Source of the DNA: a virus
Virus record (IMG/VR): IMGVR_UViG_3300045988_123629
Length of the DNA: 64,000 nucleotides
Reading direction: 5' to 3' (one strand)
Positions 378 through 64,000 of the stretch are shown piece after piece. Under the pieces are notes generated by a model. That model saw only the letters and a program-made list of their open reading frames with translations. It did not search any database and was not told the origin of the DNA. Numbering within the stretch: position 1 is the first letter of the stretch; every line of letters begins with the position of its first letter. Position numbers and translations under genes: made by a program.

Positions 378-395
378 ATAGACTGGAGGTAGAAA

Positions 396-1451: not shown

Positions 1452-1500
1452 TATTGTCCTTTTGTTTATAATAAATAATTGAAAGGAGAATTTTTTATTT

Positions 1501-4427: not shown

Positions 4428-4439
4428 GGAGGGTGGAAA

Positions 4440-4796: not shown

Positions 4797-4809
4797 AGGA
4801 GGTGGAACT

Positions 4810-6459: not shown

Positions 6460-6468
6460 GGAGGATTT

Positions 6469-8046: not shown

Positions 8047-8063
8047 TAAGGAGGACATACTAA

Positions 8064-8981: not shown

Positions 8982-8998
8982 GAAAGGAGAAAAGGATA

Positions 8999-23000: not shown

Positions 23001-25394
23001 GAATTACATTATGAAAAATTAACTTATGAAGTTGAAGTAAAAATTCAATTAGATGAAAATGATACTAAAAAATTAGAATATTATTTTGATAAATTAAGTG
23101 ATAATATTTATAAAGCTGCTGAAGCTCTTGGATATTTACAAGGTCAATTTGATCCAGTAATTAGCCAATTAGGAACTTATGAAAATTTCTATGGTTAGTT
23201 AAACAATGCTTATTCTAATGGAGAAATTTCTCAAGAAAATTATATTGAAGGCTTACAAGATGTATATGATAATACATTAGATAATTTAAATGCTTTGTAG
23301 GATTTAGATAAAGAAATGCTTGAATATTATGGTAATACTATAGATTTAGCAAATGATGAATTATCTAAATATACAGATCATATGGAGCATTTAACTAGTG
23401 TATTGGATCATTATTGTTCTATTATTACTTTGTTAGGTAAAGACAAAGATTATGATAAAGTTTTATCAGTTTTGAATGGAACTGCTTAGACTAAGAAAAA
23501 TAATTTTGATACTTCTAAACAATGGTATGAAAGCTTGAAGCGTGAACGTGATGCAGCAGCCGCAACTTTAGCCAGTTCAACCGATGAGGCTGAGCGTGAA
23601 GTGCTTCAAAAGAATTATGATGCTATATTAGCTGCATTCGATGAAGCGGAAGAAGATATGCTTTCTAAAGCTGAAGAATATGGTGAAGCATTAAAAGAAA
23701 TCCTTACTACAAAGATGGAACAAGCTGCGGATGAAATGAATAAGCAATTAAGCACTACCAAAGTGAGTATTAATGGTAATAACTTTAATATTTCCGGTTG
23801 GGATGCTTTAAATGATGCTTTGGATAGAATGTCTTCTTACCAAGATGAATATTTAACAAAAACTAATTAGATTTATGAAATGAATAAACTACTTAATAAT
23901 GTTAATTAGGCTATTGATAAGACAAATAATCAAGCAGCTAAAAATAGATACCAGCAATTTACTAAAGAAATTGAGTAGTTAAGAGATAAAGATAAATTAA
24001 GTCAATTAGAATTAGAAATTGCTTAGGCTAAATATAAAGTGCTTGAAGCGCAAATCGCGTTAGAGGAAGCTCAAAACGCAAAATCCACAGTTAGATTACA
24101 ACGTGATAATGAGGGTAATTTTGGTTATGTGTATACCGCAGACCAAGAGAAAGTAAATGATGCGCAATAGGCTTTGGCGGACGCGGAAAATGATTTATAT
24201 AACATTCGCCTTGATGCGACAAATAAATATGGTCAACAAAAACTTCAATATGAGAAAGAGTTGGCTGACAAACTTGCGGAACTTAATTAGAAAGCCGCGG
24301 AAGATGCTGTTTACCGTGAGACTACATATCAGCAAGAACGTGCGTTAGTAATTCAACAATATACTGATTTAATTACTACTGCTGGAAATCTTTATGCGAA
24401 AGCTCAAGAAGAGGATAGTAGAGTCGTTCAAGACGCTTGGGTAAATTCTTTTGATATTATCAAAGATAATAGTAATAGTTGGAAAGATACTATTACTGAA
24501 AACACTAATATTATCAATGATACATTTAAAGAATGGCAAGATAGCATGGATGAAATTAGTAAAATTGTTGGTGATGATTTAAAAGATACTCAATAGAAAG
24601 TTAAAGATGTTACTGATGAAAGTAATAAACTTTATCAAGAAGTATCTAATAAAGTTATCCCCGCTCTTGAAGGTGAGTTAAGTTCCGTTCGTAGTGCCAC
24701 TGAAGCTTGGGCACAACATCGTCAGCAATTACTTGATACTATTAGAGCTTATGAAGAGCTTTTGAACGCCATTCAAGCGACATTGCGCGCTTAGAGTGGA
24801 TTTGGTAGCGATAGTAGTAATTCTTCAACAAGAGTTGATTGGTCTGAAAAAATGGGTCAAGTTGAATATGGTTCTGATAAATATAATGAATATTATCAAA
24901 ATCGTGAAGATGTTATTAAAGGAGGATATGACATTAAAACAGCTACAAATGCTCGTGTTAATGCTTTTTATCAAAAAGGATTGACATTACCAATTACCCG
25001 CAATGGAAAAACTTATACTCATTTTACTGATATTCCTGATAGCGTTTGGAAACAATTAGTTGGGTTTAGAAGTGGCGGCTATACTGGCACTTGGAATGAT
25101 GGTGGAAAATTAGCGTTCTTACATTAGAAAGAATTAGTTCTTAATGCTGATGACACGGAAAATATGTTAGCTTCTATCCAATTAGTTAGATAGATCGCGA
25201 AACAATTAGATTTCAATAGTCAACAAATTTCTACTCTTTCTTCTTCTGGATTTACTGTTAGTTCTCAAGATGGAACATTAGAATAGAATGTTAGAATTGA
25301 AGCTAATTTCCCGAACGCAACTGATAGATACGAAATTCAAGAAGCATTTAATACATTAGTTAATGTAGCTTCTCAGTATGCCAATAGAAAATAA
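17082..25394 (+). CDS. tail tape measure protein, about 2770 aa
   Basis: All ORF-track fragments at 17886, 19518, 19815, 20688, 22512, 23535 and 24852 are in one frame and joined only by TAGs; the fragment GTALKTIFARIQGLKLGE resembles the TP901-type tape measure motif; hydrophobic Gly/Ala-rich segments near 19500-19900; TAA at 25392-25394 followed by a terminator. Confidence 0.8.
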
Positions 25395-39240: not shown

Positions 39241-39277
39241 GGGGAAAGATGAAATATTCTTTCCCCATATTTTTTTT
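39241..39277 (+). terminator. rho-independent terminator
   Basis: ggggaaagat, loop gaaata, ttctttcccc, then atatttttttt. Confidence 0.7.
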
Positions 39278-39297
39278 AGGATAGAAAGGAGTAAATT

Positions 39298-42200
39298 ATG
39301 TCTAAGATACGTTTTCGTCCTGTATAGGGTCCAGAAGAAAAGATAAAAGCATATCCACAAACTGATGGATATTTTTATGTGGCAACAGATACCGGACGAG
39401 TTTATTTAGATACAGCGACTGAGAATAAAATACCAATAGGTTCAAGTGGCGTTTAGGTAATTTATGGAACTGAAAAAGACGTCGGAATTGATTATGATGC
39501 GGATGAAAACCCAATCGGATATTCAATTCGTTTATCTAATTTATCAAGTTCTAATCCTCATGTAAATGATTTAATTTTAAATAGCGATGGAGCATTTTAT
39601 CGTATTAAAGAATTTAAATTAAATGATGATAAAGAAGAAGTCGCAAGTTGTGAAAAATTATTGGCGGGCGGTGGAAGTCAAGACCAAGAAGTCAAAGTAA
39701 ATGGTACTGTTTCTTTAACTTTAGATGGGCCTACTGATGTGCTTAATGGTGAATCAGTAAGCGTGACCGCGCTTGTAAAATGTAGAACAATAAACGGAGA
39801 ACCAGTTCTTGATTCTGTTGAAGGTACTTTAACTATTAGATAGAAAAAGAGTGATGGTTCTTGGGAAGATATTTATAGTGAAGCAAAAACTTATCAACAT
39901 AATAAACCAATTACTATTGATATTTCTGCTCATTTAAGAAAATCTTCCACACATGAAATTGAGTTTATTGTTAGTAAAAATAGTGACTCTACTAACAATC
40001 ATTTTTCTGCAACTAAGAAAACTCAATTTATAACTACTCATGAATTAACTCTTTAGTGGTAGGAAAGTAAATTTAATAATAATTTACCTTTTGATAATGG
40101 TTAGATTAATGTTACTTGGTTGATGTCTAATAAAGTAAATAGTGCTATTGAAGTTTATTTTGATAATTATTTAGTTTTAGATAAAGAATATGATAATACT
40201 AATACCAGAAATGAAGATAGTGTTACTATAATAAAGAATACAATTATTTTAAATAATAATAATGATTCTACAATAACTTTAGCAAATTATTTTCTTCATG
40301 GAGAACATACTATTAAAGCTAAACTTTATTTAGTTAACAACGGTGAAAAAGGAAATGGTACTGATTTTATTGAGAAAGAAATTGTTATTTTAGATAAAAG
40401 TAGTAAAACTCCTTTAATTTGGACTGGCGATTTTAAAACTGAATATTATACTTATGAAACTATTAAAATTCCTTTTAGAGTATATGATCCAAATGTAATA
40501 ACTGCGAAAGTTAGTTTGTATAAAAATGGTGTTTTATTAAGTACTCGTGAAATTAATGATTAGACTATATGGCAATACTGGGAAATTACTAATCTTTCTG
40601 TTAATGATAGTTCCTATTATACAATTAAAGTAGGAACTGAGCCATATGATTATTCTCGTAATTTTACTTTTACAATTAAAATAGACCCATTGAGAAATAT
40701 GGAGTTGGCTAGAAGTAATGATTTAAAAGTTAATTTTGTTGCTACTGGACGCTCTAATTCTGAGAGTAAATTAAGCCGTGAAACATTAGAAATTAATGGT
40801 AAATATGCGGAATTTAAAAACTTTAATTGGTATAATAATGGTTGGGTTTTTGATGATAATAATACTACTTGTTTAAGAGTTAGTAATGGAGCTGAAGTCT
40901 CTATTCCTATTGGATCATTATCTTTTGATAATAGTTCTTCTACTCCTACTCATAGTATTGAAATTCAATTTAAAATTAGAAATCCACAAAATTATTCTAA
41001 AGTAATTACAAAGTATACTCGTTATAAAGCAAGTGATGATTCTGGAAAATCTTGGACTGATAGAGACGCCTGGAATGCATTTAAAGATTAGTCTACTTAT
41101 ATTAATTATGATGAATTCTTAACAAAAAAATATTTACCAGAACATCCAGAAGCACCAAGTTATGATGAATTAACTTATAATGGATTAGATCAAGATTTTA
41201 ATTTAAATAATCTTGTTTGTGCTTACGGTTCTTTAAAAAATCCTTTAGGTATTTATTTTAGCCCTCAAGATGCTGTATTTACAGCTAATGGTGATGAAGA
41301 GACTGTTTCAGTTGATTTTGTAGAAGATGAAATGTTATATTTAACATTTGTTTATACAAGTTCTAAGCCTGGTCATACTGGTGGAGATTCTAAATTATTA
41401 GAAATTTTTTTAAACGGTGTTTTAACTAGTGTAGCTCGTCGTTCTGATAAATCTAGCAATTCTGCTTGGACAATTGATTCTGATGTGATTAAATTTATGT
41501 CTAATACTTGTGATATTGATATTTATAGTATTAGAGTTTATGATGCTAGCTTAACTATTCCTGACGTAGTTTAGAATTATGCTTTTGATAAAAAAGATAT
41601 TAATCAATGGGATCAAAAAGATTTATATGATTATAATACTATTTTAAACGATTACGTATTTTCTTATCGTAAAATGCTTGATTACAATACTGACCATAGT
41701 GATAAACCATTAATGCCATATATTATTTTAAAAACTACTAAAAATAATAGTGAAAGCACTGATAATAGACTTCCATACTCTAAAGAGAATGGTGCTCAAA
41801 AAGGAACTATGGAATTCGTAAATGTCCCATTAGATATTGCTTATGCTAAGGGCGAACTTGATAAAATAGTTGAAAAAGAGGGCTGGAAACCAGTAATAGA
41901 TGAAGAAACTAAGGAAATAAAATATACTGCGGTATAGAATTATTATTTACATCATTGCCCTAGCTTTATAACTCTTTTTGATAAAGCAACATTTTAGGTT
42001 TAGGGAACTTCTTCTCGTAATTACCCAAGACGTAATTATAAGGCTAAATGTAAAGAAGCTATGTTTATGAATAGAGGACCTTTTGAATCTATTTATAAAG
42101 AAGAAGAAGCAAATAATAATTTAAATACAAAAAGTAAGAGTTATCTTAAATTTTTCTATATGGATAATAATACTGTCGGTACTACTAAGTTTACTCTAAA

Positions 42201-45200
42201 AATTGATTTTATGGAATCTTCTGGAGATTATAATAGAGGATTTGCTAATTTAGTTAATGAAACTTATTCTAAGCATCCAATAGAAGATTATCAAGAGTCT
42301 TTTGACAAATATGATTTATATGGAAATGCTGATGATTATAGAACTTCTATGAAAGGATATCCTGTTTTAGCATTTCATTGGCCTTCAACTAATGACAATG
42401 AATATAGTGAAAACGATATTATTTATATTGGAAAATATAATATGTTATTAGATAAGGGGTCTGATGAATGTTTTGGATTTAAACCTGATAAAAAGGTTTT
42501 ATAGAATCAAATTAATGGAACTCCAAAAGTAAGAGATATTGCTGAATGTTGGGAATTTTAGAATAATTCAAGAACATATTGTTCTTTCCGTGACCCTTGG
42601 AATAGATATAAATTATCTTTTAGACCTCCATTAATGGATGATAAAAATTCAACAGGTTACTTAACTTCTGGCGGAGCTCCAATAGTTGCTGACTCTTTTG
42701 AAGTTAGATATAACTCTAATGATGATTTAATCACAGACCAATTATTTAAGTGCATTTCAGCGGAAGCTACCGACGCGGACAAGATAATTGAATTTACTGA
42801 CGCAATAAATAATACAGTTCCCAATAGATTAAAATCAGAAACCATTATTGATAATTCTACTGGTATTAAACATAAACAATGGACTATTACTAATCCAGGA
42901 CAAAATCCTATCATCTTTGATATGAAGAATAGAAATACTTCTCGTGAATTACTTCTTGCATTAATGTCAAATTGGGAAGATGCCGTAAGTTGGGTTTGGA
43001 GTACTTGTTTAGATTGTAGCATTGATTTTGATGGAGTTTTATATGAAGTTCCTTCAATGGGTCAATATGAGAAAATAGATTTAGCTGAAGCCAAGTATGA
43101 GCCAAATAAATATTATCTATTTGATAAAGTTGATGAAAATGGTAGCGAAACTTATAAAATTGCCACTGAAGATTTTAATTTAGAAGAAAAATATTATATT
43201 TATAATAAAGATAGTAAAGTTTATAGTATAATTAAATTAACTGATGATGATAATAAAGTTTATTAGATAAATAAATACTATATTTTATAGAATTAGGATA
43301 ATAAAATTTATATCTTAGATTCTGAAAAATATAATCCTTATACAACTTATTATTCTTTTATTGAAGATGAAAGCCAAATTGATGATAGATGGTTATTACC
43401 TACACCGATAATTTATAACTCAATTACTTACCATAAAGATAGTAAGGAATATCGTCAAGCTAAATTTAAAAATGAGTTAAGCAATTATTTTAATATTGAA
43501 TATTTAGCTACTTATTTTTTAATGACTGAGATTTTTGAATGTTATGACTCTCGTGGTAAAAATGCAATGTTTGCTTCTTGGGGTCCTCAAAAAGGAAATA
43601 TTGAAAAAACCACTGGAATTCAACATTATATTTGGTATCCTATTTTTTATGATATTGATACTCAATTAGGCATTAATAATACTGGTATTCCATCATTTGA
43701 ATATTATGTTGATGCTACTGAAGATGGTAGTTATTCTACTAATGATAGCGTATTATGGAATAATTTCTATACTTTTTTTAAGAGTAAAATTATTGATAAA
43801 TACAAGCAATTAATGGGTAAGCCAAATGGATCTTATGATTAGAGTCAAGTAAAACAAATTTTTAAGAAAGAGTCTGGAACTTCCTCTAAAAAAAGTGATG
43901 TTGTTGATAAATGGTATAAAACAGATCCTTCTTTATTCCCAGGTAGTTATGCTGTATAGGGAGAGCGTCCTATTATTGCTTTAAATTTAGATGAAGAATA
44001 TAAATATATTATTCCAACTAATTCAGCAGCCAAGGATACTATTTTTGGTCGTATTACTAATGGTGGTTAGTACGAAGTAGAAACTGATTAGTATTTTTAT
44101 GCTTTATAGGGTGACCGCAATCTTTATCGTTCTCAATTTTTAACTAATCGTCTTAATTATATTGACTCTTGGTTAACCGTAGATGAATATTCTGGAGATA
44201 GTGGTAGTAATAATATTATAAGTCGTATTTCTGCTAACAATCCGAATACTACATCTGATGAATGGATTGAAGGAACTAATAATCAAGGCTTAACTAATTT
44301 AATAACTAATTCTCAATATTGGAAAAATGGTACTGAATTTGGTACTAAAAATCATATGTTTGATGGTGAGTATTGGATTAAGATGGAACCCGCGCGTCGT
44401 TCTTATGTTACTGTTGGAACTGATGGAGCAAACTTCCCATCTTAGAAATATGATGGTTTAACTCCTGTTAGATTTACCGCCCCAGATCTAAAGAAAGGTA
44501 TTATGTCAAGTGGTAATTATCGTGAACAATTATATTATATTTATGGCTTAGAATAGATGAAATCTCTTGGAGATTTAAGTAAATTATATTTCCAAGAATT
44601 ATTTATTAGAGGTAAGGCTAATAAATTAGTAGATTTGTTATTAGGATATGATGGTCTTTCTGAAGAAGGAAAAGAATATAAAAATAATGACGTAAATAAT
44701 TGGAGTTATCCTAGTGAGGGTATGCCTTTATTGAAAGAAATGAATCTTTGTAATATTAGATTTTTAAATCCAGTAGCTTTAGATTTAACTAAAAGCGAAA
44801 AATTAGAAAACTTTAGAAATACTGGTTCTAATGTTACTAAAGTGTAGTTTGCAGAAGGTGTCGCGTTAAATACTTTGTATTTAACTGATTATACAAATTA
44901 TTTAAGTTTAATAGAAGCAAATCTTTTAACTAAGTTAGTTACTAAATATGTATATCCTACAGTTAATTCTATCACTAATCGTCTTGAAGTCGCAGAAGAA
45001 AATAAAGGATTGTATATTAAGAATTTAACTGATGCTGAAGATAATGCAATTACAACAAGTATAAAAACTTTTGATATCCGTGGTGGTAATCTAGATTATT
45101 ATTCTTACGAATTATTAAGACGTTATTATCTTGGGTGTGAAAAGAGTAATTTAATTGGATGCGAAGTTAATTTAACTAATGTTCAATGGAGTCCTTATAG

Positions 45201-47001
45201 ATTATTAAATGATGATAAAACAAAGTTAGATAGTGTTAATATTGAATATTATAAAGATAATGGACATTTCCAATTAGAAAAAATTAACGCGGAAGATATA
45301 AGTAAAATTACTCCAAGTGAAATAAAAAATAATTTAATTTATTATTATGATAATAGTGTAAATGGATATAATGATATTCACAATAAAATTATTGATTATA
45401 CTTTATTACGTAGTTTATATGATAAAGCTCCTGTTTATTTCAAAGGCATTAATTAGACTTATCCTAATATAACTGGCATTATTTATATTGAAAATACCCA
45501 AGAGATAGAAGAACACATAATTCAAGAAGAGCTATAGAGTATTTATCCTAATTTAACTATTTTTGTAAAAAATGTTAAGAAAGAGTATTCTGCTAAGTTT
45601 GTCCTTGAGCAAGAAGACGCGAATGGAGTGTTAACTCAAGAAATTTTAAAGACTTAGAAGTTACCTTTATCAAGCTCTAAGTTTTTTGATAATCCTACAG
45701 ATTCTTCAAGTGAAACTTATATTTCTTTTGGTAGTTTACAAGAAAAAATGCCAACCTATAATTTTAAAGGTTGGGAAGACGATACTGGTGAATTAGTAAT
45801 TACAGTTGGAAAAGATGTAAATGAAAAAGATATTGTTTTAAAAGATAATTGGGATTCTTTATCTTTGCGATCTGATAAAATAGATTATATTTTTAAAGCG
45901 AGATTTGAGCGTAAATCTTATACAATTACTTTTGTTAATGGCGATCGTGTTATTGATGATTCAACTGTAAAGAAAGTATTTAATTATGGTGAAAGGATTA
46001 CTGTTCCAGAAGAATTTTATTATTTTAATAATACAGAAGTATCTGATTTACCAGAAGGCGAAGACCCATTAGAATGGACTTGGAGATAGACGGGATGGGC
46101 GGATAAAGATGGAGTTAAAATTGATTTAACTAAACAACTAGCCTATGCTGACCGCGAATTCTATGCTATTGGAGAACCCATTAGTGTTTATAATAATATT
46201 TTAACTAATGATTCTACTCATAAATATTATGATATTATAAACTCTGATGGAGAATTATCATTTGCAATGACTGACTTAGCTAAGAATTTAAAAGGCAAAA
46301 TTACTTTACCTACAACTTATAATGGTTAGCCAATTACAAGAATTAAATATAGCCAAGTTAACCCCTCAGCAGCAGTTGGTATACAAGTAAATCCTAATAT
46401 TACTGCTATATTCTTTGCTCCAAAAGATAGTAATAAAATTTCTGTAATAGATGATTATGCCTTTATTTTAGATAGTGGATTAGAATATTTTTAGTTCAGT
46501 GATTGTTTAAAGAAAATTGGCATTAAGGCATTTTATCAATGTCCTTTAAGTCGTAATAATATAATTCCTTATTCTTCTTCTACGGAAGGTTTGACTTTTG
46601 GAGCTCAAGCATTCTATCAAAGTAAGATGGGGTCTTATTCTCCTTATAATTTAATTATAGAGGGATGTAAAGATGGTATTCTTAACTTTGATGTAAATGC
46701 ATTCTCTGGTTAGACAATTTTAAATATGTCTGGTAATTAGTTTAAGGGTTATACTGGTGCTATTCAAGTATAGATTGGCACTAATAAACATCCAATTAAA
46801 TAGATTACAGCAGATAGTTCTGGTAATATTTTTACCCCTCGTCAAACAGGTATGCCTACTGTTGCCAATGGATATACAGGTCGTTTTAGATATTATTATG
46901 TTGCTAGTTATGGTGAAAGTGTTAAGAATACTTTACATAGAATTTATGAAGCAATGATATCTAATAGAGCAAACTTTGAAGAAGAACCTATTGTAAAGTG
47001 A
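39298..47001 (+). CDS. giant 2567-aa fibre or host-interaction protein with C-terminal BspA-type leucine-rich repeat region
   Basis: Twelve ORF-track fragments (39661, 40120, 40690, 41332, 41674, 42061, 42634, 43522, 44557, 44875, 45748 and others) share one frame from the ATG at 39298 to the TGA at 46999-47001 and are separated only by TAGs; N-terminus RFRPVQG...YFYVATDTGRVYLDT matches the fibre anchor motif; 46090-47001 has LRR_5-like repeats (IFFAPKDSNKISVIDDYAFILDSGLEYFQFSDCLKKIGIKAFYQC). Confidence 0.6.
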
Positions 47002-47010
47002 GGATAAAAT

Positions 47011-47211
47011 ATGGAAAAAGAAATTGTTTATAGATATACGGGTTCTAATGGCATTATTGAATCTTCTATATAGTTAGTAGGAGTGCCTGCGACTAAATTA
47101 TATAGATTAATTGCGGATTATAATAAAAAATTAACGAGAGATGGAAAAGAATTCTTTTCCATCTCTCCCTTAGTTCCCGAGAATGAATTAGAAGAATGGT
47201 ATGAGGTTTAA
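47011..47211 (+). CDS. small 66-aa protein downstream of the giant gene, possibly a fibre assembly factor
   Basis: RBS tgaggataaaatATG; one TAG; TAA then terminator. Confidence 0.35.
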
Positions 47212-47307: not shown

Positions 47308-48993
47308 TTGATAGTTAAAAATGATAGCGTTATCGAACAAGCTAAATGGGAAGAACTTCAAAAGAAAATCAATACTTTAGCTAAAGATAATAAAATAAAA
47401 AACGTTAATGGAAAAATCGTTGAAATAAAATCTATTGAAGACTATTATAGTAACATCACTGGTATCGTTCAAATGAAGAAATTAGATCCATCTGTTCTTC
47501 GTATACCTTTAGATGAGCCTATTATAAATATAAATGCTGATACTCGTCAAATTGAATTAACTAAAGAATTTGGAAAAACTCAATTACTTACTGTTGAAAA
47601 TGATCATTTGGCAGAAACAATTTATTTTCAAATTGATAGATATTTTGATTTACAAGATTTAGCAGCTGATGATATTAAAATTTATATTCAGTATTATTTA
47701 AACGATCAAGTTCAAGGTTATTCTGAAGCTATTTGTCCTGATATCGGGACTGCTGGAAAATTGATTTTTGGATGGCAAATTAGTGATGAAGTGACTAGTG
47801 AATCTGGTACTTTATAGTTTTCTATTATTTTCTTTAAAAAGAATCCAAAAGATAATAATAATTTAATGTATGTATTTAATACATTACCTGCGCAAATGGT
47901 TATTAATAAAACTTTAGATATTGATGAAGATTTAGTCACTGCGCAACCGGTTGATTATTTAACTGGGTATTTAGAAAGTTTAATTGATTCAAAGAAATCC
48001 GCGGGCTTTGGAGTTCCTGATAATGTGGCTTTCTTGACAAGTATTTTAAATAATAAATCAGTTTATTTAACTGGCGATAAATTATATGCTTTAGCTTATA
48101 ATGATACTTTAAACAATCCAGATAATACTACTATTGAATATAAATGGATTTGTAACTATAGAGGAACTAATACTGAATTAAAAAATGGTATCGGCTATGA
48201 ATACAAAAAAATTGTTGATGATAATAGTATTTTTAGTGGAGATATGATTTATAATGAAAAATTAACCTATTTTACTAAAAATGGAGATACTTATATTAAT
48301 AGTAGTAGTGATATTAATCTTGAAAATTACGCTGCTAAAAAGAATGATCTCTATTTAAAAGTTTAGTATTGCGAAGTCGATGGATGCGGAAGTTATAGTG
48401 TGACAGCATTTGGTGCTACTGCAAATCAAGTAAGTAAAGAAGTTAAATGGGCTGGATTAGCTATTTCTGTTGAAGGAATTAGTGAAGATTTTAGAATTGT
48501 TCTTGATCCTTCTCCTGACAATGGATGTTATTATGGTTCTTCTAATATAATTACTGCTACTGGATAGAATGATGAAGGAGTTCAATGCACTTACCTTTGG
48601 ACGAAGAATGGATCTGAATTCAGCACTGAAAAAACTGTAACTTTAACTCAAGAAGATAATTATACTTTAACTGTTCATGGATATAAAAATAAAGATAATA
48701 TAGATTATGGTCCAATTAATTTTACTAATTATTTTGATCCAACTAATTTAAGACCTACTATTGAAAATGATAAAGCAGTAATTGAAAATGAAAAATATAT
48801 TGTTAAGGTCACTAATACTAGTGAATTAGGTAATGGTATTTATGAATATCAATGGAAAAATGCAACTGGAGTTACTTTAAAGACAACTTCTGAAAACTCA
48901 ACAGAAATAGATGAAAATATTACTCAAGGAGCTGTAATTATCAAGAAAGGTGAAAGAAAATCACAACCAGGAACCTTTAAGATTGAGGGGTAA
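47308..48993 (+). CDS. hypothetical tail or baseplate protein, 561 aa (paralog of 48999-49619 in its N-terminal part)
   Basis: TTG start after gaaaggaag; ORFs 47308 and 47866 are in the same frame across TAGs to the TAA at 48991. Confidence 0.45.
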
Positions 48994-48998
48994 GATAA

Positions 48999-49619
48999 AT
49001 GATAACTAATCCAACTGATTATTATAGCGTTTTACATCAAATACAAGATGAAAATTTTCCAGTAAAATATCCAGCTCTTCCTGCTCCAGAAGATGAAAAA
49101 TTAGTTTAGGTAAATTTAAATTCAAGGATTATTAGTAATGAAAATAATTATATTACAGTTGAAGGCGACCATGCTGCTGAAATTATTTATTTTGAAATAG
49201 ATAGATATTTTGATACCATGGATTTAACTAATATGATGTGTATTATTTAGTATATTAATGCTGATAATGAAAAACGCATTTATCCAGTTCCATATTATGA
49301 TACTTTAACTCATAAAGATAAAATTATTTTTCCTTGGGTTTTAAATTATAGTGCTACTAAAAAATCTGGCAATTTAAATTATATGATAACTTTTTATAAA
49401 ATAGAAAAAGATTCTAATAATTTATTATATAATTTAAACACATTGCCAGCAAGTCTTTAGGTTTATTCTAAACTTAATTTAGATTCTATTGTAAAAGAAG
49501 AAGATTATTATGTAATTGATGATAGCCAAGTAGTCCAACAAATTTGGGAGCGTTTAGCTCGTTTAGAAGGATTTGTTGGTGGTAATGGGTTGGATGTTTA
49601 TTGGATTGTTCTTGAATAA
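48999..49619 (+). CDS. hypothetical protein, 206 aa, paralogous to the N-terminal region of 47308-48993
   Basis: Shared colinear blocks: VEGDHAAEIIYFEIDRYFDTMDL with VENDHLAETIYFQIDRYFDLQDL, and NLLYNLNTLPASL with NLMYVFNTLPAQM; 4 in-frame TAGs. Confidence 0.45.
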
Positions 49620-49691: not shown

Positions 49692-50720
49692 ATGGCTCTA
49701 TTTAAAATTTTAAAAGGAAACTCAGACAGATTAGTCACCTATAATGCAGAAACAATTAATGGGAAAATACCTTTTCCATCTTTGGATTCTGGAAAAACTT
49801 TATTTACAACAGTAGATGATACTACCCCTATTACAGAAGGGTATGCCTATTTTACAGAAGATACTCATAAATTTTATATTGATACGGCAAACAAAAGATT
49901 AAATTTATATACTGACCATGCGGATTATGCTACTTATGATGAGAATGGACGTAATTTAGCGGAATTGTCAGAAGTATCTTATGAAAATATCGATGATACT
50001 GGAAGTAAAATTGGTACAATAAATATTAATGGAATTGAATATAATGTTACTTGTCCGGCAGATATAGTGAGTAAACCTGTAAATAAATATGTGTTTACAG
50101 CAAAAGCAAACTAGAATACATTTACAATTCCTTTCGATTTTGATGATAGCAGTGCTTTAACTTTATATTATAATGGTATTATGTTAAAAGAAACAGATCA
50201 TTATACTATTAAAGGAAAAGTTATTACTTTAAATGGATGGACTAGTGAAGCTGATGATTATCTTGCGGTTATGGGTATTGAAGGAGCTGCTGCTATTAAT
50301 GTAGATGAAAAAGTTGCTTAGATTTAGGAAGCAATAGATAACGCTGAAGTAACTATTAATAATAAAGTAAGTAGTGCTATTAAACAAATTGACGATAAAT
50401 TAGCAACTGTTCCTGACGATGTAACACAAGCAGTATATAAAAATAAATCTAATATAATGACTGCTGATGGTAGAATTACGATGGATAGTAGTTATGTTCC
50501 TACGGCTGATATGGAATTAGCTACTAAAAAATATGTTGATAATGCTACTCCTCCTACGGTTGGAACTACTACTGATTATTCTATTTATATTGGATCTACA
50601 CAACCTGCTTCGGGGACCGCGCCTTTAGTATGGATAGATACAACTGCCAAAACTGGCACTTTTAAATATAGAACTTCTACCACGGGTACTTGGACACCTG
50701 TTCCTGTAGCTTGGATTTAA
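49692..50720 (+). CDS. fibre-like protein, 342 aa, with anchor-motif N-terminus
   Basis: ORFs 49692 and 50457 are in the same frame across 3 TAGs; N-terminus FKILKGNSDRL resembles the KF(L/V)(K/R)G(S/N) motif of 36922 and 37518. Confidence 0.45.
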
Positions 50721-51165: not shown

Positions 51166-51212
51166 AAAATAAGGGAGACATTCTTAATTGAATGTCTCCC
51201 TTATTTTTTTTA
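51165..51212. terminator. bidirectional rho-independent terminator between convergent genes
   Basis: aaaaaataagggagacattc, loop ttaatt, gaatgtctccctt, then atttttttt; A-run on the left side and T-run on the right. Confidence 0.7.
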
Positions 51213-51926
51213 TCTAAATGGATTTTTCCATCGTCGATTAATTTCTTCATAGCCTTTTTTAGGAAAATATAAAACTTCACCATTTTTAAAAGTTAAATTA
51301 TCTTTATTCATTATTTTAATTTGATTTAAATTAATAATTAAACTTGGTGGAATAAAGACAAAATCTGGATGATAAACTAAAGTTCCTATATAATTTTCAA
51401 AAGAAGTTTTTAAAGTTTTACTATTTAGAATTTCATTCTCTAAATGACAGCACAAATTTCGTTTTTGAATATCAGCGTATAATACTTTATTTAAATCAAT
51501 TTTTACTTCTCCATTAGGAGTATCTAAATATTTATATTCACGTCTTTTTTCTTCTCTAACTTCATGTAAAATAGAAAAAATTTTTTCTTTATTAACAGGC
51601 TTTTTGACAAAATTAAATGCCTTTACTTCATAAGAAGCTACTCCACAATTTATTTGAGAGGAAACAAAAATTATTTTTCCAATATACCCATTTGTCCTTA
51701 AAAGATGAGCTATTTCAATACCATCCATTTTTTTAAATGTAATCCCTAAAAAAATTGCATCATAATCAATATTAGAGTTAATTAATTTTTCAGGATCAGT
51801 AAATTTATATACATATCCTGGTAAATTAAAATCTTTAAAATACTGATTTATTATTTCTTCCAATGAGTCATTTTGCTAATCGCTATTGTCGCAAACACCT
51901 ACGATAAAAATTTTAATCACCTTCAT
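51210..51926 (-). CDS. LytTR-family response-regulator-like transcription factor with a degenerate receiver domain
   Basis: Minus-strand ATG at 51926 (MKVIKIFIVGVCDNSD), with a TAG in frame to ORF 51210-51863; receiver-like region GKIIFVSSQINC...VKAFNFVKKP and C-terminal LytTR-like region (KIDLNKVLYADIQ...HPDFVFIPPSLIINLNQIK...EVLYFPKKGYEEINRRW); TAA stop; no obvious Shine-Dalgarno. Confidence 0.65.
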
Positions 51927-57829: not shown

Positions 57830-58282
57830 CTAATTGCGAGAACCGCGCAAAGGTAAAGTAATATCTCTTTCCTTTTGGATATATGGTCCATCAATTAGAT
57901 AATCAGCAGTTTTTAGTATATTCTTAATTCTAATATTATTACTATTCTTTAAATCATCATAAACATATCCAGTCCATATATATATTTTAATGTTTGGATA
58001 TATTTTTTTAATTTCAGTAATAACTAAATTAGTTAAAAATTCGTTTTCAGGGCAGAGAGGTTCTCCACCCATAATACAAAGATTACGCGCAACATTATTC
58101 GCATTAATAGCAGTAATTAATTCATCTAATACTTTATTAGTAAATTCTTTGCCACCATTAAAATCCCACGTTTCAGGATTCTGACATCCTTCACAATGGT
58201 GCGGGCACCCTTGTGTAAAAAATGATACACATACTCCGGGTGCCGCCGCCAAATCATTCTTTATAATTCCTGCATATTTCAT
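57830..58282 (-). CDS. nrdG: anaerobic ribonucleotide reductase activating protein (radical SAM)
   Basis: CVSFFTQGCPHHCEGCQN Cx3Cx2C cluster near the N-terminus; start overlaps the nrdD stop (ATGA); TAG-free. Confidence 0.8.
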   Translation of the reverse strand: MKYAGIIKNDLAAAPGVCVSFFTQGCPHHCEGCQNPETWDFNGGKEFTNKVLDELITAINANNVARNLCIMGGEPLCPENEFLTNLVITEIKKIYPNIKIYIWTGYVYDDLKNSNNIRIKNILKTADYLIDGPYIQKERDITLPLRGSRN

Positions 58283-60600
58283 TCTAATGCTCCTGTATGT
58301 TTTACTCTTGCTTCAACTTCTTTTTGTTTACCCCAGTTAAAAGCAGTTTTATAATTGCCTGTAAGATAGCCAGTTACACGACGTAATTGCTGAATATTAT
58401 GGCTTCCACACACTGGGCAAGAATCATTAAATTCATCACAATAACCGCATTCAAGGCAAGTGTCATTAGGAACATTTACTGCGAAATAAGGAATATCATG
58501 ATCCATAGCATAATTAACAATAGTTTCAAGAGCATCAATATTATGTTTTACAGTAGAATCAAGTTCAACATAAGTGATACATCCTGCGGATGAATAACCA
58601 GTCAGCTCAGATTCAATATCAATTTTTTCAAATGGACTCATTTCTTTCCACACCGGAACATGAATACTGTTAGTGAAAAATTCTCTATCACTAACATTAG
58701 GGATAATTCCATACCTTTCTTTAAATTTCGTCATAGCTGTATAACAAAGATTTTCTGCTGGAGTATAGTATACACCAAAATTTAATTTATATTTTTCTTT
58801 GTATTCAGCGCATCTTTCTTTAAATAATTGTTCAATTTGTTTAGCTAATTCCATTCCTTCTGAAGTGGTGTGGTCTTTACCAATAAGAATTTGAAGAGTT
58901 TCTGCCAAACCTAACTGACCAATAGCAAGAGTTCCATGCTTAAGAGCAGAACGAATTCCCTCTTCTGGGATATAGCCTGCCATAACGTTATTTTCATACA
59001 TAAATTTCGCGGAACCTGGATCTTGAGAACAAATCCACTCAAAACGCTCCATTAATTGAATACGCGCTTCATTGATTTTTCTATCGAGTAAAGACATAAA
59101 TCGTTCTACGCCAATTTTAGTCCGTTCTTCTTGAGACAATGATTTATAGTCATCCCAATTATCATTTTCATTTAGAGTAACGGCCATCATCGCTAGAGTA
59201 GGAAGAATAATAGTAACTGGACAAATATTTCCACGTCCATCTTTAAGCTGGCCGAATCCATTAATATCCCATCCATTCGCGGTTCTGCATCCCATCGTAG
59301 AAAAATAAGTGCGAGGATCATTAATATCATATCCAGCATTACCGGACCAATCAACATTTGCATAATTAGGATAAAGGCGTCTTGCGGTGCTTTCTAATGC
59401 TAATCTATATAAATCATAGTTAGGATCACCAGGTTTGCGGTTAACACCTTTCATACATTGGAAAATTCCACAAGGGAAAATCGAAGTTTTATGAAGTTTA
59501 CCAAGACCTTCAATAGAAACATCTAATAACGCCTTAGTCACCATTCTGCCTTCTGGTAAGGTGCAAGTGCCATAATTAATACTCGTAAATGGTAATTGGT
59601 TACCGCTACGAGACTGTAAAGTATTAAGATTATGGTAAAGACCTTCTGCAGCTTGATGAGTCTCACGGACAGTCATATCATAGGCATAATCATAAGCCTT
59701 TTTATAAGTTTCAGAAGCTAATAAATAACTAACTGCATTTTCTTCTTCAGTTTTTGTTGTGGCATTTCGGTATGATTGAATAGGCATTTTTGATGTGTCT
59801 AAATCTCCTAATACATTATTAACAATATAGTTATAATCATTAGGACTATATAAGTATTTAACTCCATCTTTAAAATGCTTCCAAAAAGATTTTCTTACAT
59901 AAGGAACCATAGTCCAATCTAAGTGAGTGGCACTAACTCCGCCAAACTAACAAAGACTTTGGATTTGAAAAATAACAGCAATTAATTGAAATGCTGTATT
60001 AATTGAACCCGCAGGACGAACATCTGCTTGACGAGTATTAAATCCATTAGCAAGCAAATTATCAAAAGGAATACTTAAACAGTTATGAGAACCAACATAA
60101 TAAGAATCAAGATCGTGAGTATATATCATATTATCAATATGATTCTTACGAGCCATAGGGGAAAGTAAGTAATCAAGTGCAAGTTGTTTGGTGACAACAC
60201 CACTTGCTTCACCTATACGACCACCGAATGAATGTTCATCAACATTAGCATTTTGATTTTTTACGTTATTACCATCGAGCTTTTCACGAATTGCTTTAAT
60301 AAAATCATCTTTTTTATTACGAGCAACTTCTTTTTTATATCTATATCTGATATAAGCACGAGCAACATCGCGTCGCTCAGAACGCATTAAATAATCTTCA
60401 ATCCAATCTTGAAGATCTTCTACTCCAACACTTCCATCGGGGAAATGATTTATTTGTCTTTCAATGTCTTCCGCGATATCTTTTGCGGTATCATCTTCAT
60501 ATAGTTTACCATCAACTTCAATAAATGCTTTATTTATTGCGTTAATAATTTTCTTTTTATTAAATTGAGTTATACTTCCATCACGTTTAATAATATACAA
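58279..60600 (-). CDS. nrdD: anaerobic ribonucleoside-triphosphate reductase
   Basis: ORFs 59947-60600 (ATP-cone-like MYIIKRDGSITQFNKKKIINAI) and 58279-59910 are in the same frame, joined across in-frame TAGs; C-terminal CGYCDEFNDSCPVCG Zn ribbon and RVTGYL glycyl-radical motif; TTG start 9 nt after ggagg. Confidence 0.85.
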
Positions 60601-60795: not shown

Positions 60796-61251
60796 CTAAA
60801 ATTGAATTTCATCAGTAGTATATCTTCTAATGATTTCATTTACATCAGGATTTTTTTCTCTATTTAATTGCCTAATTAAGCGTGTCTTTCCTTTAGCGGT
60901 AATATAATATATCTCCAATTCAATTCTATCATCTTTAAGAAGACTTATAATTCCTTCAGGATTAAAAACACCAATATTAACTTTACTATCAGACAAACTA
61001 TCAATACTTGTGCCATAATACCAATTATTAAAAGAAGTGGTTTCTAACATTTTATTTTCATCAATTAAAGTTAAAAACTGGTCATCTGAAACAAAATGAT
61101 AATTTTTGTCTGCTATTTCTTTTTCACGCTTCGGGCGCGTAGTGTGGCTTATAATAGGATTTAAATATTCCTCTAAGTGGGAAAAGGTAGCCATCATTAG
61201 GCTATCTTTTCCCGCACCAGATTTTCCACATAATGCAATAATTTTATACAT
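60796..61251 (-). CDS. guanylate-kinase-like nucleoside monophosphate kinase
   Basis: P-loop ALCGKSGAGKDS and SHTTRPKREKE...YHFV, as in guanylate kinases; the ATG at 61251 (aggagg 11 nt upstream) overlaps the DnaE stop as ATGTATAA; an alternative in-frame ATG at 61281 has no RBS. Confidence 0.6.
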   Translation of the reverse strand: MYKIIALCGKSGAGKDSLMMATFSHLEEYLNPIISHTTRPKREKEIADKNYHFVSDDQFLTLIDENKMLETTSFNNWYYGTSIDSLSDSKVNIGVFNPEGIISLLKDDRIELEIYYITAKGKTRLIRQLNREKNPDVNEIIRRYTTDEIQF

Positions 61252-64000
61252 CTTCTTCAATTCCTCCTTGATAACGAGCATCTTTTAAAACTAAATCGCC
61301 ATTAGATAAAATTTCATCAATTTTATATAATTGATGCCCTCCAGAAGAAGCATATTTTTTTGACATGAAATTATCTCCATTGCGGATTCCAGAGACTACA
61401 ATCATATTTCCGCGATTAAACCAAGATTTTTCAACAATATGTTTGGTTCCATCTGCACCGCGCTCTGAAATTTGTTTATCAAACAAACTAAAATATTCTT
61501 TTCTAAATTTTACTTCTACAGGACCAGTAGTAGTAAGGATAGTTACGGTACTTTTAGTTTTATTTTTGGCAATACAAGTTCCGCAAATTTTAAATAACTT
61601 ATAAATATGAATAGTATGATTTCCTTTAGTAAAACTTCTATCAATTATTGGGTCTTCTGGAAGTTTAAAGAAATCTACAAATCCATATTTATCATTGTTA
61701 ATATTGTTTAATTCATGAGTATGATAATAATAACAAAGAACTTCCATTTCCCAAGCGGATAGATTATTTTTATTAGCGTATTTATCCCAATCATCTTTAA
61801 ATATTTTTATATTCAGATTATTCAAAATTTCATCTTTATTATTAGCAATCCAAGTGCGAAATATATCCATCCACTTTTGGTATATACCATTCCAAATATT
61901 TTCACTTAAAGAATAATTAGTTCCATCAAATTGAATATTATTATCTTCTCCAATTTCTACTAAGAAATTAATAGCTCGTTCATCAAGTTGATATAAACCA
62001 TTATTTTTTGTAGTTTTACAAATTGCTTTTAAATATCTATTAAATTCATAAATACGGCGAGCCATAATTTGATTTTCATTTTCTTCTGGAAGAAGATCAT
62101 ACTTCATAAGTCCGCCCATATTTTGAAGAGTAATTCTTTTCTTTTTGTCGCAAGTTTCCCAAATATACCAAATCATTAATTCTTTTCTATCCATCATATT
62201 ATCAAAAGCTCCGCCTTTAATAAGAGAAATCATAGCTTGTTTACCTGGCTTAATACGATATAAAAATTCTTTAGGATTTGAATAAGGGCGATTGGCAATG
62301 ATTGTATTAACTAATTCATCACCAACATTTAGCATACCTTTTAGTCCAAAAAGGATTTTATTATTTTCAATATCAGGGGCAAATCCAAATTTAGATTTGT
62401 TAATATCAGGAAGACCTACTTCAATTCCTGCTTTTTGAATGTCACTAATAGCCTTGGCAATTTTTCCATAATCAGTAGCCGCGGTTTTGCGGATTTTGCC
62501 ACTTTTGTCAGGAAGATCTTCAAATGTTACTCCATTAGCTAAATCATCGCCTTCAGGAGCATAAATATCGACAATCTCTTCTTCGCTATTATCTTCAAGG
62601 GAACCACTATTAACAATTAAACAAGCGGTATCCCAATAGATAGGATTAAAATGAATTACTAAGTAAATCATTTGAATTGCTACAAATGAATAAGGAAGGG
62701 AATGGTTAAGGCTAAATGCATATCCTAATTGAGGAGCAACTGCAATTTCCCAAAAGTATTCAGCAGATTTTTCATTATCAAATTTACTAAATACTTGTTC
62801 TCTCAGTTGTGGAATTTTAGCCATTTGCTTTTTAGCAACAATCTTACGCGCAGTATTAGCTTCACCAAGAGTAAAATGAGCTACATCCATAAGGATTTCC
62901 ATCATTTGCTCTTGAATAGGACAACATCCATAATATTTATCACAATGCTTATGCATCTTATCAATTAATTCTTGTGGAAGATGCTGAGCCTTCATTTCAT
63001 CATCAAATACTTTAATACCCGAATGTTGAATGCGATAATATCTATCTTGCTGTGATTCCTTGCCTTTTTCAGACATAAGACGCATCATAGCATTTGCCGC
63101 CGTCATTTCCATAGGGTCTTGGGGTTTAAGACGTTTCGCAATTGCTAAACCAACTCCCGTAGAAAATTGGAATACATCTAATACATCACCCGCGGCAAGG
63201 TGGTCCCAAATTGCTTGGTCAGTTGTATCTATTACTTCTGGATGAATATATTTATTATAGAATTCTCGTAAAGATAATTCTGGAATTTGTTTATCTTTTA
63301 GAAGTAATTGATAACAAGTAATAATTTTGTCAGAAGCTTCAGTTACAAGGAAGTCATATTTTGTATCTCCCGCGGCTTCCGCTTTATGAAGATCCCAACA
63401 AGTAATCATATCTCCACTAGGAGTTCTCATAAATGATGCTGTATCAAATGGATCGTCACCATACAAAATAACGCCAGAAGCATGAGAAGAACGTTTATTA
63501 ACCATTCCTTCAATATATACAATAATATTCAAAAGACCAGGATATTGGTTTACTTCTCGAATAAATGCTTGAACGGGTTTACGGTCTTTTTCTTCATTAC
63601 CATAAATAACATCATGGATAGGCCATAAAAATCCACGCTCTTGGGGAATTAATGAAGACATATATTGAGCATTATCAACATCAATTCCTTCTGGAAATTC
63701 TTCACTTCTATATCCACGACAAGCAGTTAAAATACTTTGTTTAGTGCCTTCAGTTCCAAATGTAGCAACTTGAACCAATCCCAATTCTCCGCGTTCTTTT
63801 CTAATTGCTTTAAAAATTGCGGGACGCTTACTTGGGGCAAGGTCAATATCAATATCGGGCAATTCCGCGCGCTCCTTATTTAAAAATCTCCAATAAGGAA
63901 GTCCCCAACGAATTGGGTCTAATTGAGTAATACCTAAAAGATAATTAGATAAAAAGCCAGTCGCAGAACCACGTCCAGGACCTACAATACTTCCACATTC
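61244..64000 (-). CDS. dnaE: DnaE-type DNA polymerase III alpha subunit, C-terminal two thirds; the 5' end lies beyond the window
   Basis: Frame is open to the window edge; ...VGPGRGSA... and LPDIDIDL palm-domain motifs; VATFGTEGTK, HASGVILYGD and KYDFLV blocks colinear with E. coli DnaE; TAG-free over more than 900 codons. Confidence 0.8.
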   Translation of the reverse strand, partial: ECGSIVGPGRGSATGFLSNYLLGITQLDPIRWGLPYWRFLNKERAELPDIDIDLAPSKRPAIFKAIRKERGELGLVQVATFGTEGTKQSILTACRGYRSEEFPEGIDVDNAQYMSSLIPQERGFLWPIHDVIYGNEEKDRKPVQAFIREVNQYPGLLNIIVYIEGMVNKRSSHASGVILYGDDPFDTASFMRTPSGDMITCWDLHKAEAAGDTKYDFLVTEASDKIITCYQLLLKDKQIPELSLREFYNKYIHPEVIDTTDQAIWDHLAAGDVLDVFQFSTGVGLAIAKRLKPQDPMEMTAANAMMRLMSEKGKESQQDRYYRIQHSGIKVFDDEMKAQHLPQELIDKMHKHCDKYYGCCPIQEQMMEILMDVAHFTLGEANTARKIVAKKQMAKIPQLREQVFSKFDNEKSAEYFWEIAVAPQLGYAFSLNHSLPYSFVAIQMIYLVIHFNPIYWDTACLIVNSGSLEDNSEEEIVDIYAPEGDDLANGVTFEDLPDKSGKIRKTAATDYGKIAKAISDIQKAGIEVGLPDINKSKFGFAPDIENNKILFGLKGMLNVGDELVNTIIANRPYSNPKEFLYRIKPGKQAMISLIKGGAFDNMMDRKELMIWYIWETCDKKKRITLQNMGGLMKYDLLPEENENQIMARRIYEFNRYLKAICKTTKNNGLYQLDERAINFLVEIGEDNNIQFDGTNYSLSENIWNGIYQKWMDIFRTWIANNKDEILNNLNIKIFKDDWDKYANKNNLSAWEMEVLCYYYHTHELNNINNDKYGFVDFFKLPEDPIIDRSFTKGNHTIHIYKLFKICGTCIAKNKTKSTVTILTTTGPVEVKFRKEYFSLFDKQISERGADGTKHIVEKSWFNRGNMIVVSGIRNGDNFMSKKYASSGGHQLYKIDEILSNGDLVLKDARYQGGIEEDV

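What the first reader, a model, noticed from the sequence alone, without database searches (positions are those of the whole stretch)
39298..47001. Giant 2567-aa virion protein ending in a BspA-type leucine-rich repeat array
This is one frame of 7704 nt, continuous only if TAG is sense. The N-terminus carries the fibre anchor motif. The C-terminal roughly 300 aa (46090-47001) shows the 20 to 25 residue periodicity and consensus of LRR_5/BspA-like repeats, which are used by gut and oral Firmicutes and Bacteroidetes for adhesion. A phage using a BspA-type LRR as a receptor-binding tip on a 2500-aa fibre is unusual.
Basis: partly seen in the sequence, partly recalled or inferred. Interest (0 to 1): 0.65.

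Follow-up and report, generated by a model that had tools for sequence, protein, structure and literature searches.

The report
Giant phage tail protein, LRR tip
This is a real 2,567-residue tail-module gene of a gut phage that reads TAG as glutamine. It combines a CotH-kinase-like core with an exchangeable BspA-type leucine-rich-repeat tip, so it is a new variant of a giant phage tail protein type that has been noticed before but never studied.

Summary
Window 39298-47001 is one 2,567-codon frame with 35 in-frame TAGs and no TAA or TGA before the final TGA (chance about 1e-79). TAG means glutamine. All 8 TAG-involving codon differences from a 93%-identical relative are swaps with CAA or CAG. 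A non-recoded homologue has true Gln codons at 7 of 31 aligned TAG sites. The invariant Q902 is TAG here.

The body is homologous to the 2,245-aa DGR target of Bacteroides Hankyphage. Here an LRR_5 tip replaces the hypervariable lectin, and it varies by module exchange (tip 97-99% identical on bodies 60-69% identical).

The receptor-binding and virion roles are inferred. The result is of moderate interest.

The parts
39241..39277 (+). Hairpin (GGGGAAAGA...TCTTTCCCC) followed by a T-run, terminator-like, after the preceding gene
   Evidence: Read directly from the sequence
39285..39291 (+). Shine-Dalgarno AAAGGAG, 6 nt before the ATG
39298..47001 (+). Giant gene: 2,567 codons plus a TGA stop, with 35 in-frame TAG codons read as Gln
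39298..39672 (+). Conserved N-terminal module (aa 1-125), a putative tail-attachment domain. It has no match in the PDB or PHROGs and is shared with the gene at 49692-50720
39748..40983 (+). Beta-rich region (aa 151-562) matching phrog_24896 (unknown function). It is collinear with Hankyphage DGR target residues 383-748
40975..41577 (+). LamG/jelly-roll lectin-like domain (about aa 560-760)
41935..44217 (+). CotH-kinase-like fold (about aa 880-1640) with a large insertion (about aa 1100-1390)
42001..42015 (+). Invariant Q-G-T-S-S motif (aa 902-906). Q902 is encoded by TAG
43546..43563 (+). Invariant D-S-R-G-K-N motif (aa 1417-1422), putative catalytic loop
   Evidence: The equivalence to CotH D228 is inferred
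43648..43662 (+). Invariant Y-D-I-D-T motif (aa 1451-1455), putative metal-binding Asp
   Evidence: The equivalence to CotH D251 is inferred
44545..45147 (+). First LRR solenoid (LRR-A, about aa 1750-1950) of the canonical LxxLxLxxN type. It is shared with the Hankyphage protein
   Evidence: AF2 secondary structure. BLASTP alignment extends to residue 1871. No Pfam hit
45580..46182 (+). Two beta-grasp domains (about aa 2095-2295) resembling the internalin B-repeat / Listeria-Bacteroides repeat
   Evidence: Foldseek match to 2y5p, prob 1.00, TM 0.65. Faint Flg_new hit
46294..46812 (+). BspA/TpLRR-type (LRR_5) solenoid tip (aa 2333-2505), about 6-7 turns
46879..46998 (+). C-terminal cap (strand, long helix at aa 2536-2555, strand)
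   Evidence: AF2 model
49692..50720 (+). 342-aa tail-fibre-like gene that shares the giant protein's N-terminal module
   Evidence: hmmsearch 22.6 bits, E=2e-7 in a 31-sequence database

Best explanation
The gene encodes a giant multi-domain distal tail protein of a roughly 190-196-kb siphovirus-type gut phage that decodes TAG as glutamine in its late genes.

Domain order from N to C:
1. A 125-aa module that probably docks it to the tail tip.
2. Beta-rich spacer domains.
3. A LamG-like lectin domain.
4. A complete CotH-kinase fold with invariant Asp/Asn motifs.
5. A canonical LRR.
6. Two internalin-type B-repeats.
7. A terminal BspA/TpLRR-type LRR_5 solenoid.

The LRR_5 tip is most likely the ligand-binding end that recognises a host-cell surface molecule. 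Its specificity changes by swapping the tip module between phage lineages. In the homologous Hankyphage protein, the same position is instead varied by DGR mutagenesis of a C-type lectin.

Shown here: the gene, the code, the domain folds, the homologies and the tip mosaicism.
Inferred: presence in the virion, tail attachment, receptor binding and enzymatic activity of the CotH core.
For: Code: 35 TAG and no other internal stop. All 8 TAG-involving codon differences from the 93%-identical L004 gene are with CAA or CAG, and the gene uses CAA 47 times, TAG 35 times and CAG 0 times. The non-recoded homologue P0027 has CAA/CAG Gln at 7 of 31 aligned TAG sites against a 2.9% background (binomial p=2.7e-5).

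Tail context: the gene lies downstream of a 2,770-aa tape-measure-like protein and PHROG 'tail' proteins. Its Hankyphage homologue follows the tape measure, baseplate hub and minor tail protein.

Tip as specificity module: tip/body identity is discordant. In Hankyphage, the DGR variable repeat sits at the equivalent C-terminal end of the homologous scaffold.

Against: - There is no experimental or proteomic evidence that the protein is in the virion.
- The N-terminal module matches nothing known, and the Hankyphage homologue has a different N-terminus.
- The models show a chain of globular domains, not a trimeric fibre shaft. Oligomeric state was not tested.
- The target's own LRR_5 score is below Pfam's cutoff.
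- An invariant kinase-like active site suggests the protein does more than bind.
Confidence: 0.62

Rival explanations
1. The protein is mainly an enzyme delivered with the virion. The CotH-like kinase would phosphorylate (or otherwise modify) a host envelope or host intracellular substrate at or after adsorption. The LRR domains would serve to recruit the substrate rather than to determine host range.
For: The CotH block is the most conserved part of the protein: 76-80% identity at residues 1401-1500 in homologues that are about 40% identical overall. The putative catalytic residues are invariant in 54 of 54 sequences. The whole kinase fold is retained. Roux et al. proposed host-signalling manipulation for the CotH-containing DGR targets (10.1101/2020.04.01.020958).
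Against: Equivalence of D1417 and D1452 to CotH D228 and D251 is inferred from motif resemblance and spacing (22-24 residues in compact members, 35 in the target), not from a residue-level alignment. The family profile does not reach 5jda by sequence. No activity data exist. This reading does not explain the rapid exchange of the tip, and it is compatible with the main explanation rather than exclusive of it.
Confidence: 0.2
2. The LRR_5 tip and lectin-like domains attach the phage to something other than its host, such as animal mucus, epithelium or non-host bacteria. This would be a 'bacteriophage adherence to mucus'-type function, as BspA proteins do for bacteria.
For: LRR_5/BspA proteins are adhesins of gut and oral bacteria (general knowledge). 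LamG/CBM40-like and B-repeat domains are typical of surface adhesins. Relatives of the tip come from human faecal viromes.
Against: The gene sits among baseplate and fibre genes, not capsid-decoration genes. The homologous position in Hankyphage is a DGR-diversified lectin, which is classically a receptor-binding element. Lineage-specific tip swapping fits an arms race with hosts.
Confidence: 0.1
3. The long frame is an artefact: a string of separate standard-code genes or a decaying pseudogene that happens to lack TAA and TGA.
For: Under the standard code the frame breaks into pieces of 234 codons or fewer. No suppressor tRNA lies in the window.
Against: The chance probability is about 1e-79. 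Full-length collinear homologues exist down to 20% identity, including one with no TAG at all. TAG interchanges only with CAA and CAG. Both models are confident across TAG positions. The related phAss-1 group carries suppressor tRNAs elsewhere in the genome (PMC10607447).
Confidence: 0.01

Closest known systems
DGR variable protein of Bacteroides 'Hankyphage' p00 (BK010646, 2,245 aa). This is the 'category f1' class of DGR targets (Wu et al. 2018, PMC5758913), PC_00012 (Roux et al., 10.1101/2020.04.01.020958) and 'domain group 3' (Macadangdang et al. 2024, 10.1101/2024.11.15.621889)
   Same: Both are over 2,000 aa and occupy the same place in the tail module. BLASTP homology is collinear over target residues 175-565, 646-1098 and 1379-1871 (best E=1e-18). 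That covers the beta-rich region, LamG, the CotH motifs (QGTSS..YP.KN, D.R.KN, YD.DTQ.G) and the first LRR.
   Different: Hankyphage ends in a C-type-lectin variable region diversified by a DGR (VR, TR and RT are annotated). The window protein ends in two B-repeats plus an LRR_5 solenoid, with no TR/VR-like repeat in 36-64 kb. The N-terminus differs. The phage is different: about 190 kb and TAG-recoded, against a 43-kb temperate Bacteroides phage.
BspA/TpLRR-type LRR proteins (Pfam LRR_5): TpLRR 6mlx, BACOVA_04585 4fs7, Faecalibacterium 4gt6, Eubacterium 4h09, pneumococcal PcpA 4cp6
   Different: Those are bacterial surface or secreted proteins. Here the domain is the C-terminal tip of a phage tail protein. 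It has only about 6-7 irregular repeats (spacing 23-30 residues) and is below Pfam's cutoff on its own.
Bacillus CotH spore-coat protein kinase (5jda; Pfam PF08757)
   Different: About 12% identity. It contains a roughly 290-aa insertion and is embedded in a 2,567-aa tail protein. Pfam detects it only in homologues. Activity and substrate are unknown.
Listeria internalin B (LRR + B-repeat)
   Same: An LRR solenoid combined with B-repeat beta-grasp domains (Foldseek 7nms/7pv9 and 2y5p).
   Different: The matches are weak (E about 0.04). The order of the domains and the LRR subtype differ. This is a resemblance of architecture only.
phAss-1 group of TAG-to-Gln gut siphoviruses (PMC10607447)
   Same: TAG-to-Gln recoding concentrated in structural genes, a very long tape measure, and a major-capsid-like protein about 50% identical.
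   Different: phAss-1 is 136 kb. Its tail fibres carry pectate-lyase domains, and no homologue of the giant protein was found in it.

Membership tests
Pfam LRR_5 (BspA/TpLRR-type LRR) | The protein's own sequence reaches Pfam's gathering score for PF13306 | tested here: not met
   17.9 bits (full length) and 23.3 bits (tip alone, E=6e-5) against a cutoff of 27.7. This is an operational threshold, so see the next rows.
Pfam LRR_5 (BspA/TpLRR-type LRR) | Homology to the family at profile level, at the same position | tested here: met
   Nine of 9 aligned homologue tips score 31-59 bits. The tip profile that includes the target hits 4fs7 at 6e-12, 4gt6 at 4e-8 and 4h09 at 4e-6. The family profile hits 4fs7 at 3e-36, 4gt6 at 4e-34, PcpA at 1e-21 and TpLRR at 4e-14.
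Pfam LRR_5 (BspA/TpLRR-type LRR) | TpLRR-type solenoid fold | tested here: met
Pfam LRR_5 (BspA/TpLRR-type LRR) | Adhesin function | not testable with these tools
   No binding data.
CotH kinase (PF08757) | Pfam match above the gathering score | tested here: inconclusive
   The target has no hit. Homologue P0027 scores 25.7 bits against 23.8, in the block that is about 78% identical to target residues 1400-1520. P0058 scores 25.9 bits.
CotH kinase (PF08757) | CotH kinase fold | tested here: met
CotH kinase (PF08757) | Catalytic Asp residues (B. subtilis D228 and D251) conserved | tested here: inconclusive
   D1417, N1422, D1452 and D1454 are invariant in 54 of 54 sequences, with spacing of 22-24 residues in compact members. 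Residue equivalence was not established by alignment. The catalytic residues are taken from PMC7821199.
CotH kinase (PF08757) | Protein kinase activity | not testable with these tools
   Needs biochemistry.
Giant LamG-CotH DGR-target tail proteins (Hankyphage type) | More than 2,000 aa with LamG and CotH motifs, and homologous to the Hankyphage target | tested here: met
   The class is described in PMC5758913.
Giant LamG-CotH DGR-target tail proteins (Hankyphage type) | C-terminal C-type-lectin variable region with a cognate template repeat and reverse transcriptase | tested here: not met
   The tip is LRR_5. There is no TR/VR-like direct repeat in 36-64 kb, and no RT among the ORFs scanned. 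Only 64 kb of the roughly 192-kb genome was seen.
Phage tail fibre / receptor-binding protein | Encoded in the tail/baseplate module | tested here: met
Phage tail fibre / receptor-binding protein | N-terminal attachment domain shared with other tail proteins | tested here: inconclusive
   The module is shared with the gene at 49692-50720, but it matches nothing in the PDB or annotated PHROGs.
Phage tail fibre / receptor-binding protein | Distal module exchanged between related phages | tested here: met
   Tip 97-99% identical on bodies 60-69% identical, and tip 38-41% identical on bodies 63-74% identical.
Phage tail fibre / receptor-binding protein | Present in virions and binds the host receptor | not testable with these tools
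   No proteomic or binding data.
TAG-to-Gln recoded phage (genetic code 15) | In-frame TAG corresponds to Gln in relatives | tested here: met
TAG-to-Gln recoded phage (genetic code 15) | Suppressor tRNA(CUA) encoded by the phage | tested here: inconclusive
   There is no tRNA in the 64-kb window. The rest of the genome was not available.

The most novel reading that the evidence does not exclude
The giant protein is a virion-borne, catalytically active CotH-type kinase (or phosphotransferase) held at the tail tip. Its exchangeable LRR_5 tip would bring the enzyme onto a specific host-surface molecule, and modification of that molecule would be part of adsorption or envelope penetration. That would be an enzymatic entry mechanism not described for any phage. 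It would be shared with the DGR-diversified Hankyphage-type proteins that are ubiquitous in the human gut.
Probability: 0.2. Interest if true: 0.85.

Novelty: new variant of a known kind. Interest (0 to 1): 0.55.

Why it matters
Giant CotH-containing tail proteins are among the most common DGR targets in human-gut phages, yet the literature calls them unstudied (PMC8008677).

This window shows that the same scaffold exists in a very different phage lineage: about 190 kb, TAG-recoded, and probably with an anaerobic Firmicutes host. Here a BspA-type LRR tip replaces the hypervariable lectin.

So two independent routes, DGR mutagenesis and module swapping, vary the same end of the same protein. 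That points to this end as the specificity determinant. The strictly invariant kinase-like centre then stands out as the conserved working part.

The result gives a concrete, testable set of residues (D1417, N1422, D1452, D1454) and a defined tip domain for binding studies. It also gives a clean natural demonstration of TAG=Gln at an invariant functional residue (Q902).

Tried and rejected
- blastn of the gene against 50,697 phage records gave only a 145-nt chance-level match.
- phmmer of the full protein against PDB sequences gave nothing meaningful.
- A profile of the central segments against PDB sequences did not reach CotH 5jda, so there is no residue-level alignment of the active site.
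- The N-terminal module gave no hit against the PDB and only weak hits to unannotated PHROG families.
- A search for a bacterial donor of the tip found only three short metagenomic fragments and no close bacterial LRR_5 protein. Recent capture from a host gene is therefore not supported within that tool's sensitivity.
- A DGR hypothesis for this gene was rejected: there is no template/variable repeat pair.
Exact substrings of P0001 were used instead.
- Literature searches for BspA/LRR_5 as a phage receptor-binding domain found nothing relevant.
- The pseudogene/artefact reading was rejected (see the rival explanations).
- The representative-library search and the collection scans were not used, because they carry no annotation that would change the verdict.
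Full report
OBSERVATION. Window 39298-47001 (+) translates as 2,568 codons. They contain 35 in-frame TAGs, no TAA, and a single TGA as the last codon. The other two frames of the same stretch hold 127 and 434 TAA/TGA codons. From base composition, the chance of a TAA/TGA-free frame of this length is about 1e-79. Under the standard code the longest open piece is 234 codons. The ATG is preceded by AAAGGAG (39285-39291), by an in-frame TAA at 39292, and by a hairpin plus T-run from the upstream gene. The whole + strand block 336-54788 reads as TAG-sense genes. TAG density is 15.9 per 1,000 codons there, against 4.0 in the minus-strand block. No tRNA lies in the window.

MEANING OF TAG. Fifty-five full-length homologues (2,122-2,674 aa) exist in metagenomes, on contigs up to 196 kb. 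The closest, P0001, is 95% identical at protein level and 93% at nucleotide level. It has the same length and lies on a 192.6-kb contig with identical gene order. Three lines of evidence agree:
- Between the window and P0001's gene, all 8 codon differences involving TAG are exchanges with CAA (7) or CAG (1). Within the window gene, Gln is encoded by CAA 47 times, TAG 35 times and CAG never.
- A distant homologue, P0027 (36% identity, 98% coverage, 168-kb contig), has no in-frame TAG. It has genuine CAA/CAG Gln at 7 of 31 aligned TAG sites, against a 2.9% background (p=2.7e-5). That rate is similar to the conservation of the window's own CAA Gln codons (8 of 47).
- Q902 of the Q-G-T-S-S motif is invariant in 54 of 54 sequences. 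It is TAG in the window and CAG in both homologues for which I have DNA.
TAG=Gln (code 15) is therefore established for this gene. The major-capsid-like gene (8999-10105) is about 50% identical to that of phAss-1, a described TAG-to-Gln gut siphovirus, and 39% identical to those of 140-kb Enterococcus siphoviruses (PMC10607447).

CONTEXT. Upstream lie a 2,770-aa coiled-coil tape-measure-like protein (17082-25394, 79 TAGs) and four large proteins, two of which have PHROG 'tail' matches. Downstream lie more fibre-like genes, then a LytTR-type response regulator, NrdD and DNA Pol III alpha. The gene is thus in the distal-tail part of the late module.

C-TERMINAL TIP. On its own, the protein matches Pfam LRR_5 below the curated cutoff: 17.9 bits full length, and 23.3 bits (E=6e-5) for the tip alone at residues 2379-2441, against a cutoff of 27.7. 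The evidence that it is nevertheless a BspA/TpLRR-type domain is as follows:
- The tips of nine divergent homologues, cut at the columns aligned to target residues 2290-2567, all pass the cutoff (31-59 bits) at the same relative position.
- A profile of the target plus four 32-41%-identical tips hits the solved LRR_5 proteins 4fs7, 4gt6 and 4h09 (E=6e-12, 4e-8, 4e-6).
- The full-family profile hits 4fs7 (3e-36), 4gt6 (4e-34), PcpA and 4h09 (1e-21), and TpLRR (4e-14), always through its C-terminal positions.
- An AlphaFold2 model of residues 1700-2567 of P0001 has mean pLDDT 88.8.

REST OF THE C-TERMINAL HALF. Upstream of the tip the model shows two beta-grasp domains resembling the internalin B-repeat (2y5p, Foldseek prob 1.00, TM 0.65; faint Flg_new hit). 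Before those is a first LRR of the canonical LxxLxLxxN type at about residues 1750-1950, which has no Pfam hit.

RELATION TO KNOWN PROTEINS. tblastn against phage genomes found only 'hypothetical proteins' of Bacteroides Hankyphage-type phages. In p00, the hit lies in a 2,245-aa ORF directly after the tape measure, baseplate hub and minor tail protein. Its last roughly 180 nt contain the annotated DGR variable repeat, followed by the template repeat and the reverse transcriptase. BLASTP shows collinear homology over target residues 175-565, 646-1098 and 1379-1871. That includes the CotH motifs and the first LRR.

This is the class described in three papers:
- 'Category f1' DGR targets: about 2,000 aa with weak CotH and Laminin_G_3 motifs (PMC5758913).
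- PC_00012: 2,284 aa with a CotH-like kinase (10.1101/2020.04.01.020958).
- 'Domain group 3': over 2,000 aa with CotH motifs, carbohydrate-binding motifs and LRRs (10.1101/2024.11.15.621889).
Benler et al. call these proteins 'currently unstudied' (PMC8008677).

The window protein shares that scaffold but ends in B-repeats plus LRR_5 instead of a hypervariable C-type lectin. No TR/VR-like repeat is present in 36-64 kb.

TIP EXCHANGE. Against the target, homologues P0004-P0012 are 60-69% identical over the body (77% in the N-terminal 120 aa) but 97-99% identical in the tip. P0014-P0022 are 63-74% identical in the body but only 38-41% in the tip. This discordance is the signature of recent horizontal exchange of the tip module. 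It is the behaviour expected of a host-specificity determinant. Together with the DGR-diversified tip at the equivalent end of the Hankyphage protein, it is my main argument that the LRR_5 domain is the ligand-binding end.

N-TERMINUS. The first 125 residues are conserved family-wide: 31-43% identity even where the rest is about 20% identical. They match nothing in the PDB and no annotated PHROG family. A profile of this module does hit a second tail gene of the window (49692-50720; 22.6 bits, E=2e-7 in a 31-sequence database). It does not hit the Hankyphage protein. A shared docking module is plausible but unproven.

HOW COMMON. Strong LRR_5 tips from homologues match two PHROGs of unknown function and a handful of uncultivated gut-phage contigs, but no isolated phage. 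No close bacterial counterpart of this tip was found. The searchable literature has nothing on LRR_5 as a phage receptor-binding domain.

VERDICT. The protein is not a simple fibre, though. Its defining feature is a CotH-kinase-like core, and the scaffold is a known, uncharacterised class. I rate it a new variant of a known kind, with interest 0.55. The most novel reading still open is that the invariant CotH core is an active, virion-borne enzyme used during adsorption or entry (probability about 0.2).

Noticed in passing
window 51210-51926 (-): A 238-aa response regulator sits inside the phage genome between the tail genes and the replication block. Its receiver domain scores 34.4 bits, above the Pfam cutoff. 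Its LytTR DNA-binding domain scores 20.3 bits, just below cutoff. It is conserved in the 192-kb relative (L004 21911-22627). A phage-encoded AgrA/LytTR-type regulator could link infection to host quorum sensing.
   Followed up: partly
window 39298-47001: Gln codon usage in the giant gene is CAA 47, TAG 35, CAG 0. So TAG appears to have completely replaced CAG rather than merely being added to the code.
   Followed up: partly
window 17082-25394 (+): A 2,770-aa tape-measure-like protein with 79 in-frame TAGs. It implies a very long tail, as in the phAss-1 group, whose tape measure is 3,149 aa.
   Followed up: no
window 47473-48993 and 48999-49619 (+): Two adjacent genes downstream of the giant gene share a paralogous N-terminal domain (DNA repeat 47588-47649 / 49153-49214, 79% identity; protein motif 'DH.AE.IYF.IDRYFD'). 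Neither has a PHROG match, and neither was scanned against Pfam.
   Followed up: no
window 49692-50720 (+): A 342-aa fibre-like protein carries the same N-terminal 'G-Y-x-Y-F-x-x-D-T-x-K-x-Y-I-D' module as the giant protein, which suggests a common docking site on the tail.
   Followed up: partly
window 58279-60387 (-) and 61244-63661 (-): An anaerobic ribonucleotide reductase NrdD (478 bits) and a DNA polymerase III alpha subunit. The same pair flanks the giant-protein homologue in the non-recoded 168-kb relative (L002). This fits an obligately anaerobic host.
   Followed up: partly
window 336-10105 (+): The candidate terminase, portal and capsid genes get no Pfam hit at E<=1e-3. The capsid-like protein is recognisable only by tblastn to phAss-1 and the Enterococcus and Bacillus siphoviruses. 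The lineage is poorly covered by family libraries.
   Followed up: partly
window 47136-47167 (-): A strong 14-bp hairpin with a T-tail is predicted on the minus strand, in the 470-nt gap after the giant gene's stop. It is palindromic, so it might act as a bidirectional terminator. Small ORFs of 37-44 aa lie in the gap.
   Followed up: no
L002 (ENA ERZ28654570 scaffold_92, 168 kb): A relative of this phage family encodes the giant protein with no TAG at all. Recoded and non-recoded members therefore coexist within one protein family, which is useful for dating the code change.
   Followed up: partly
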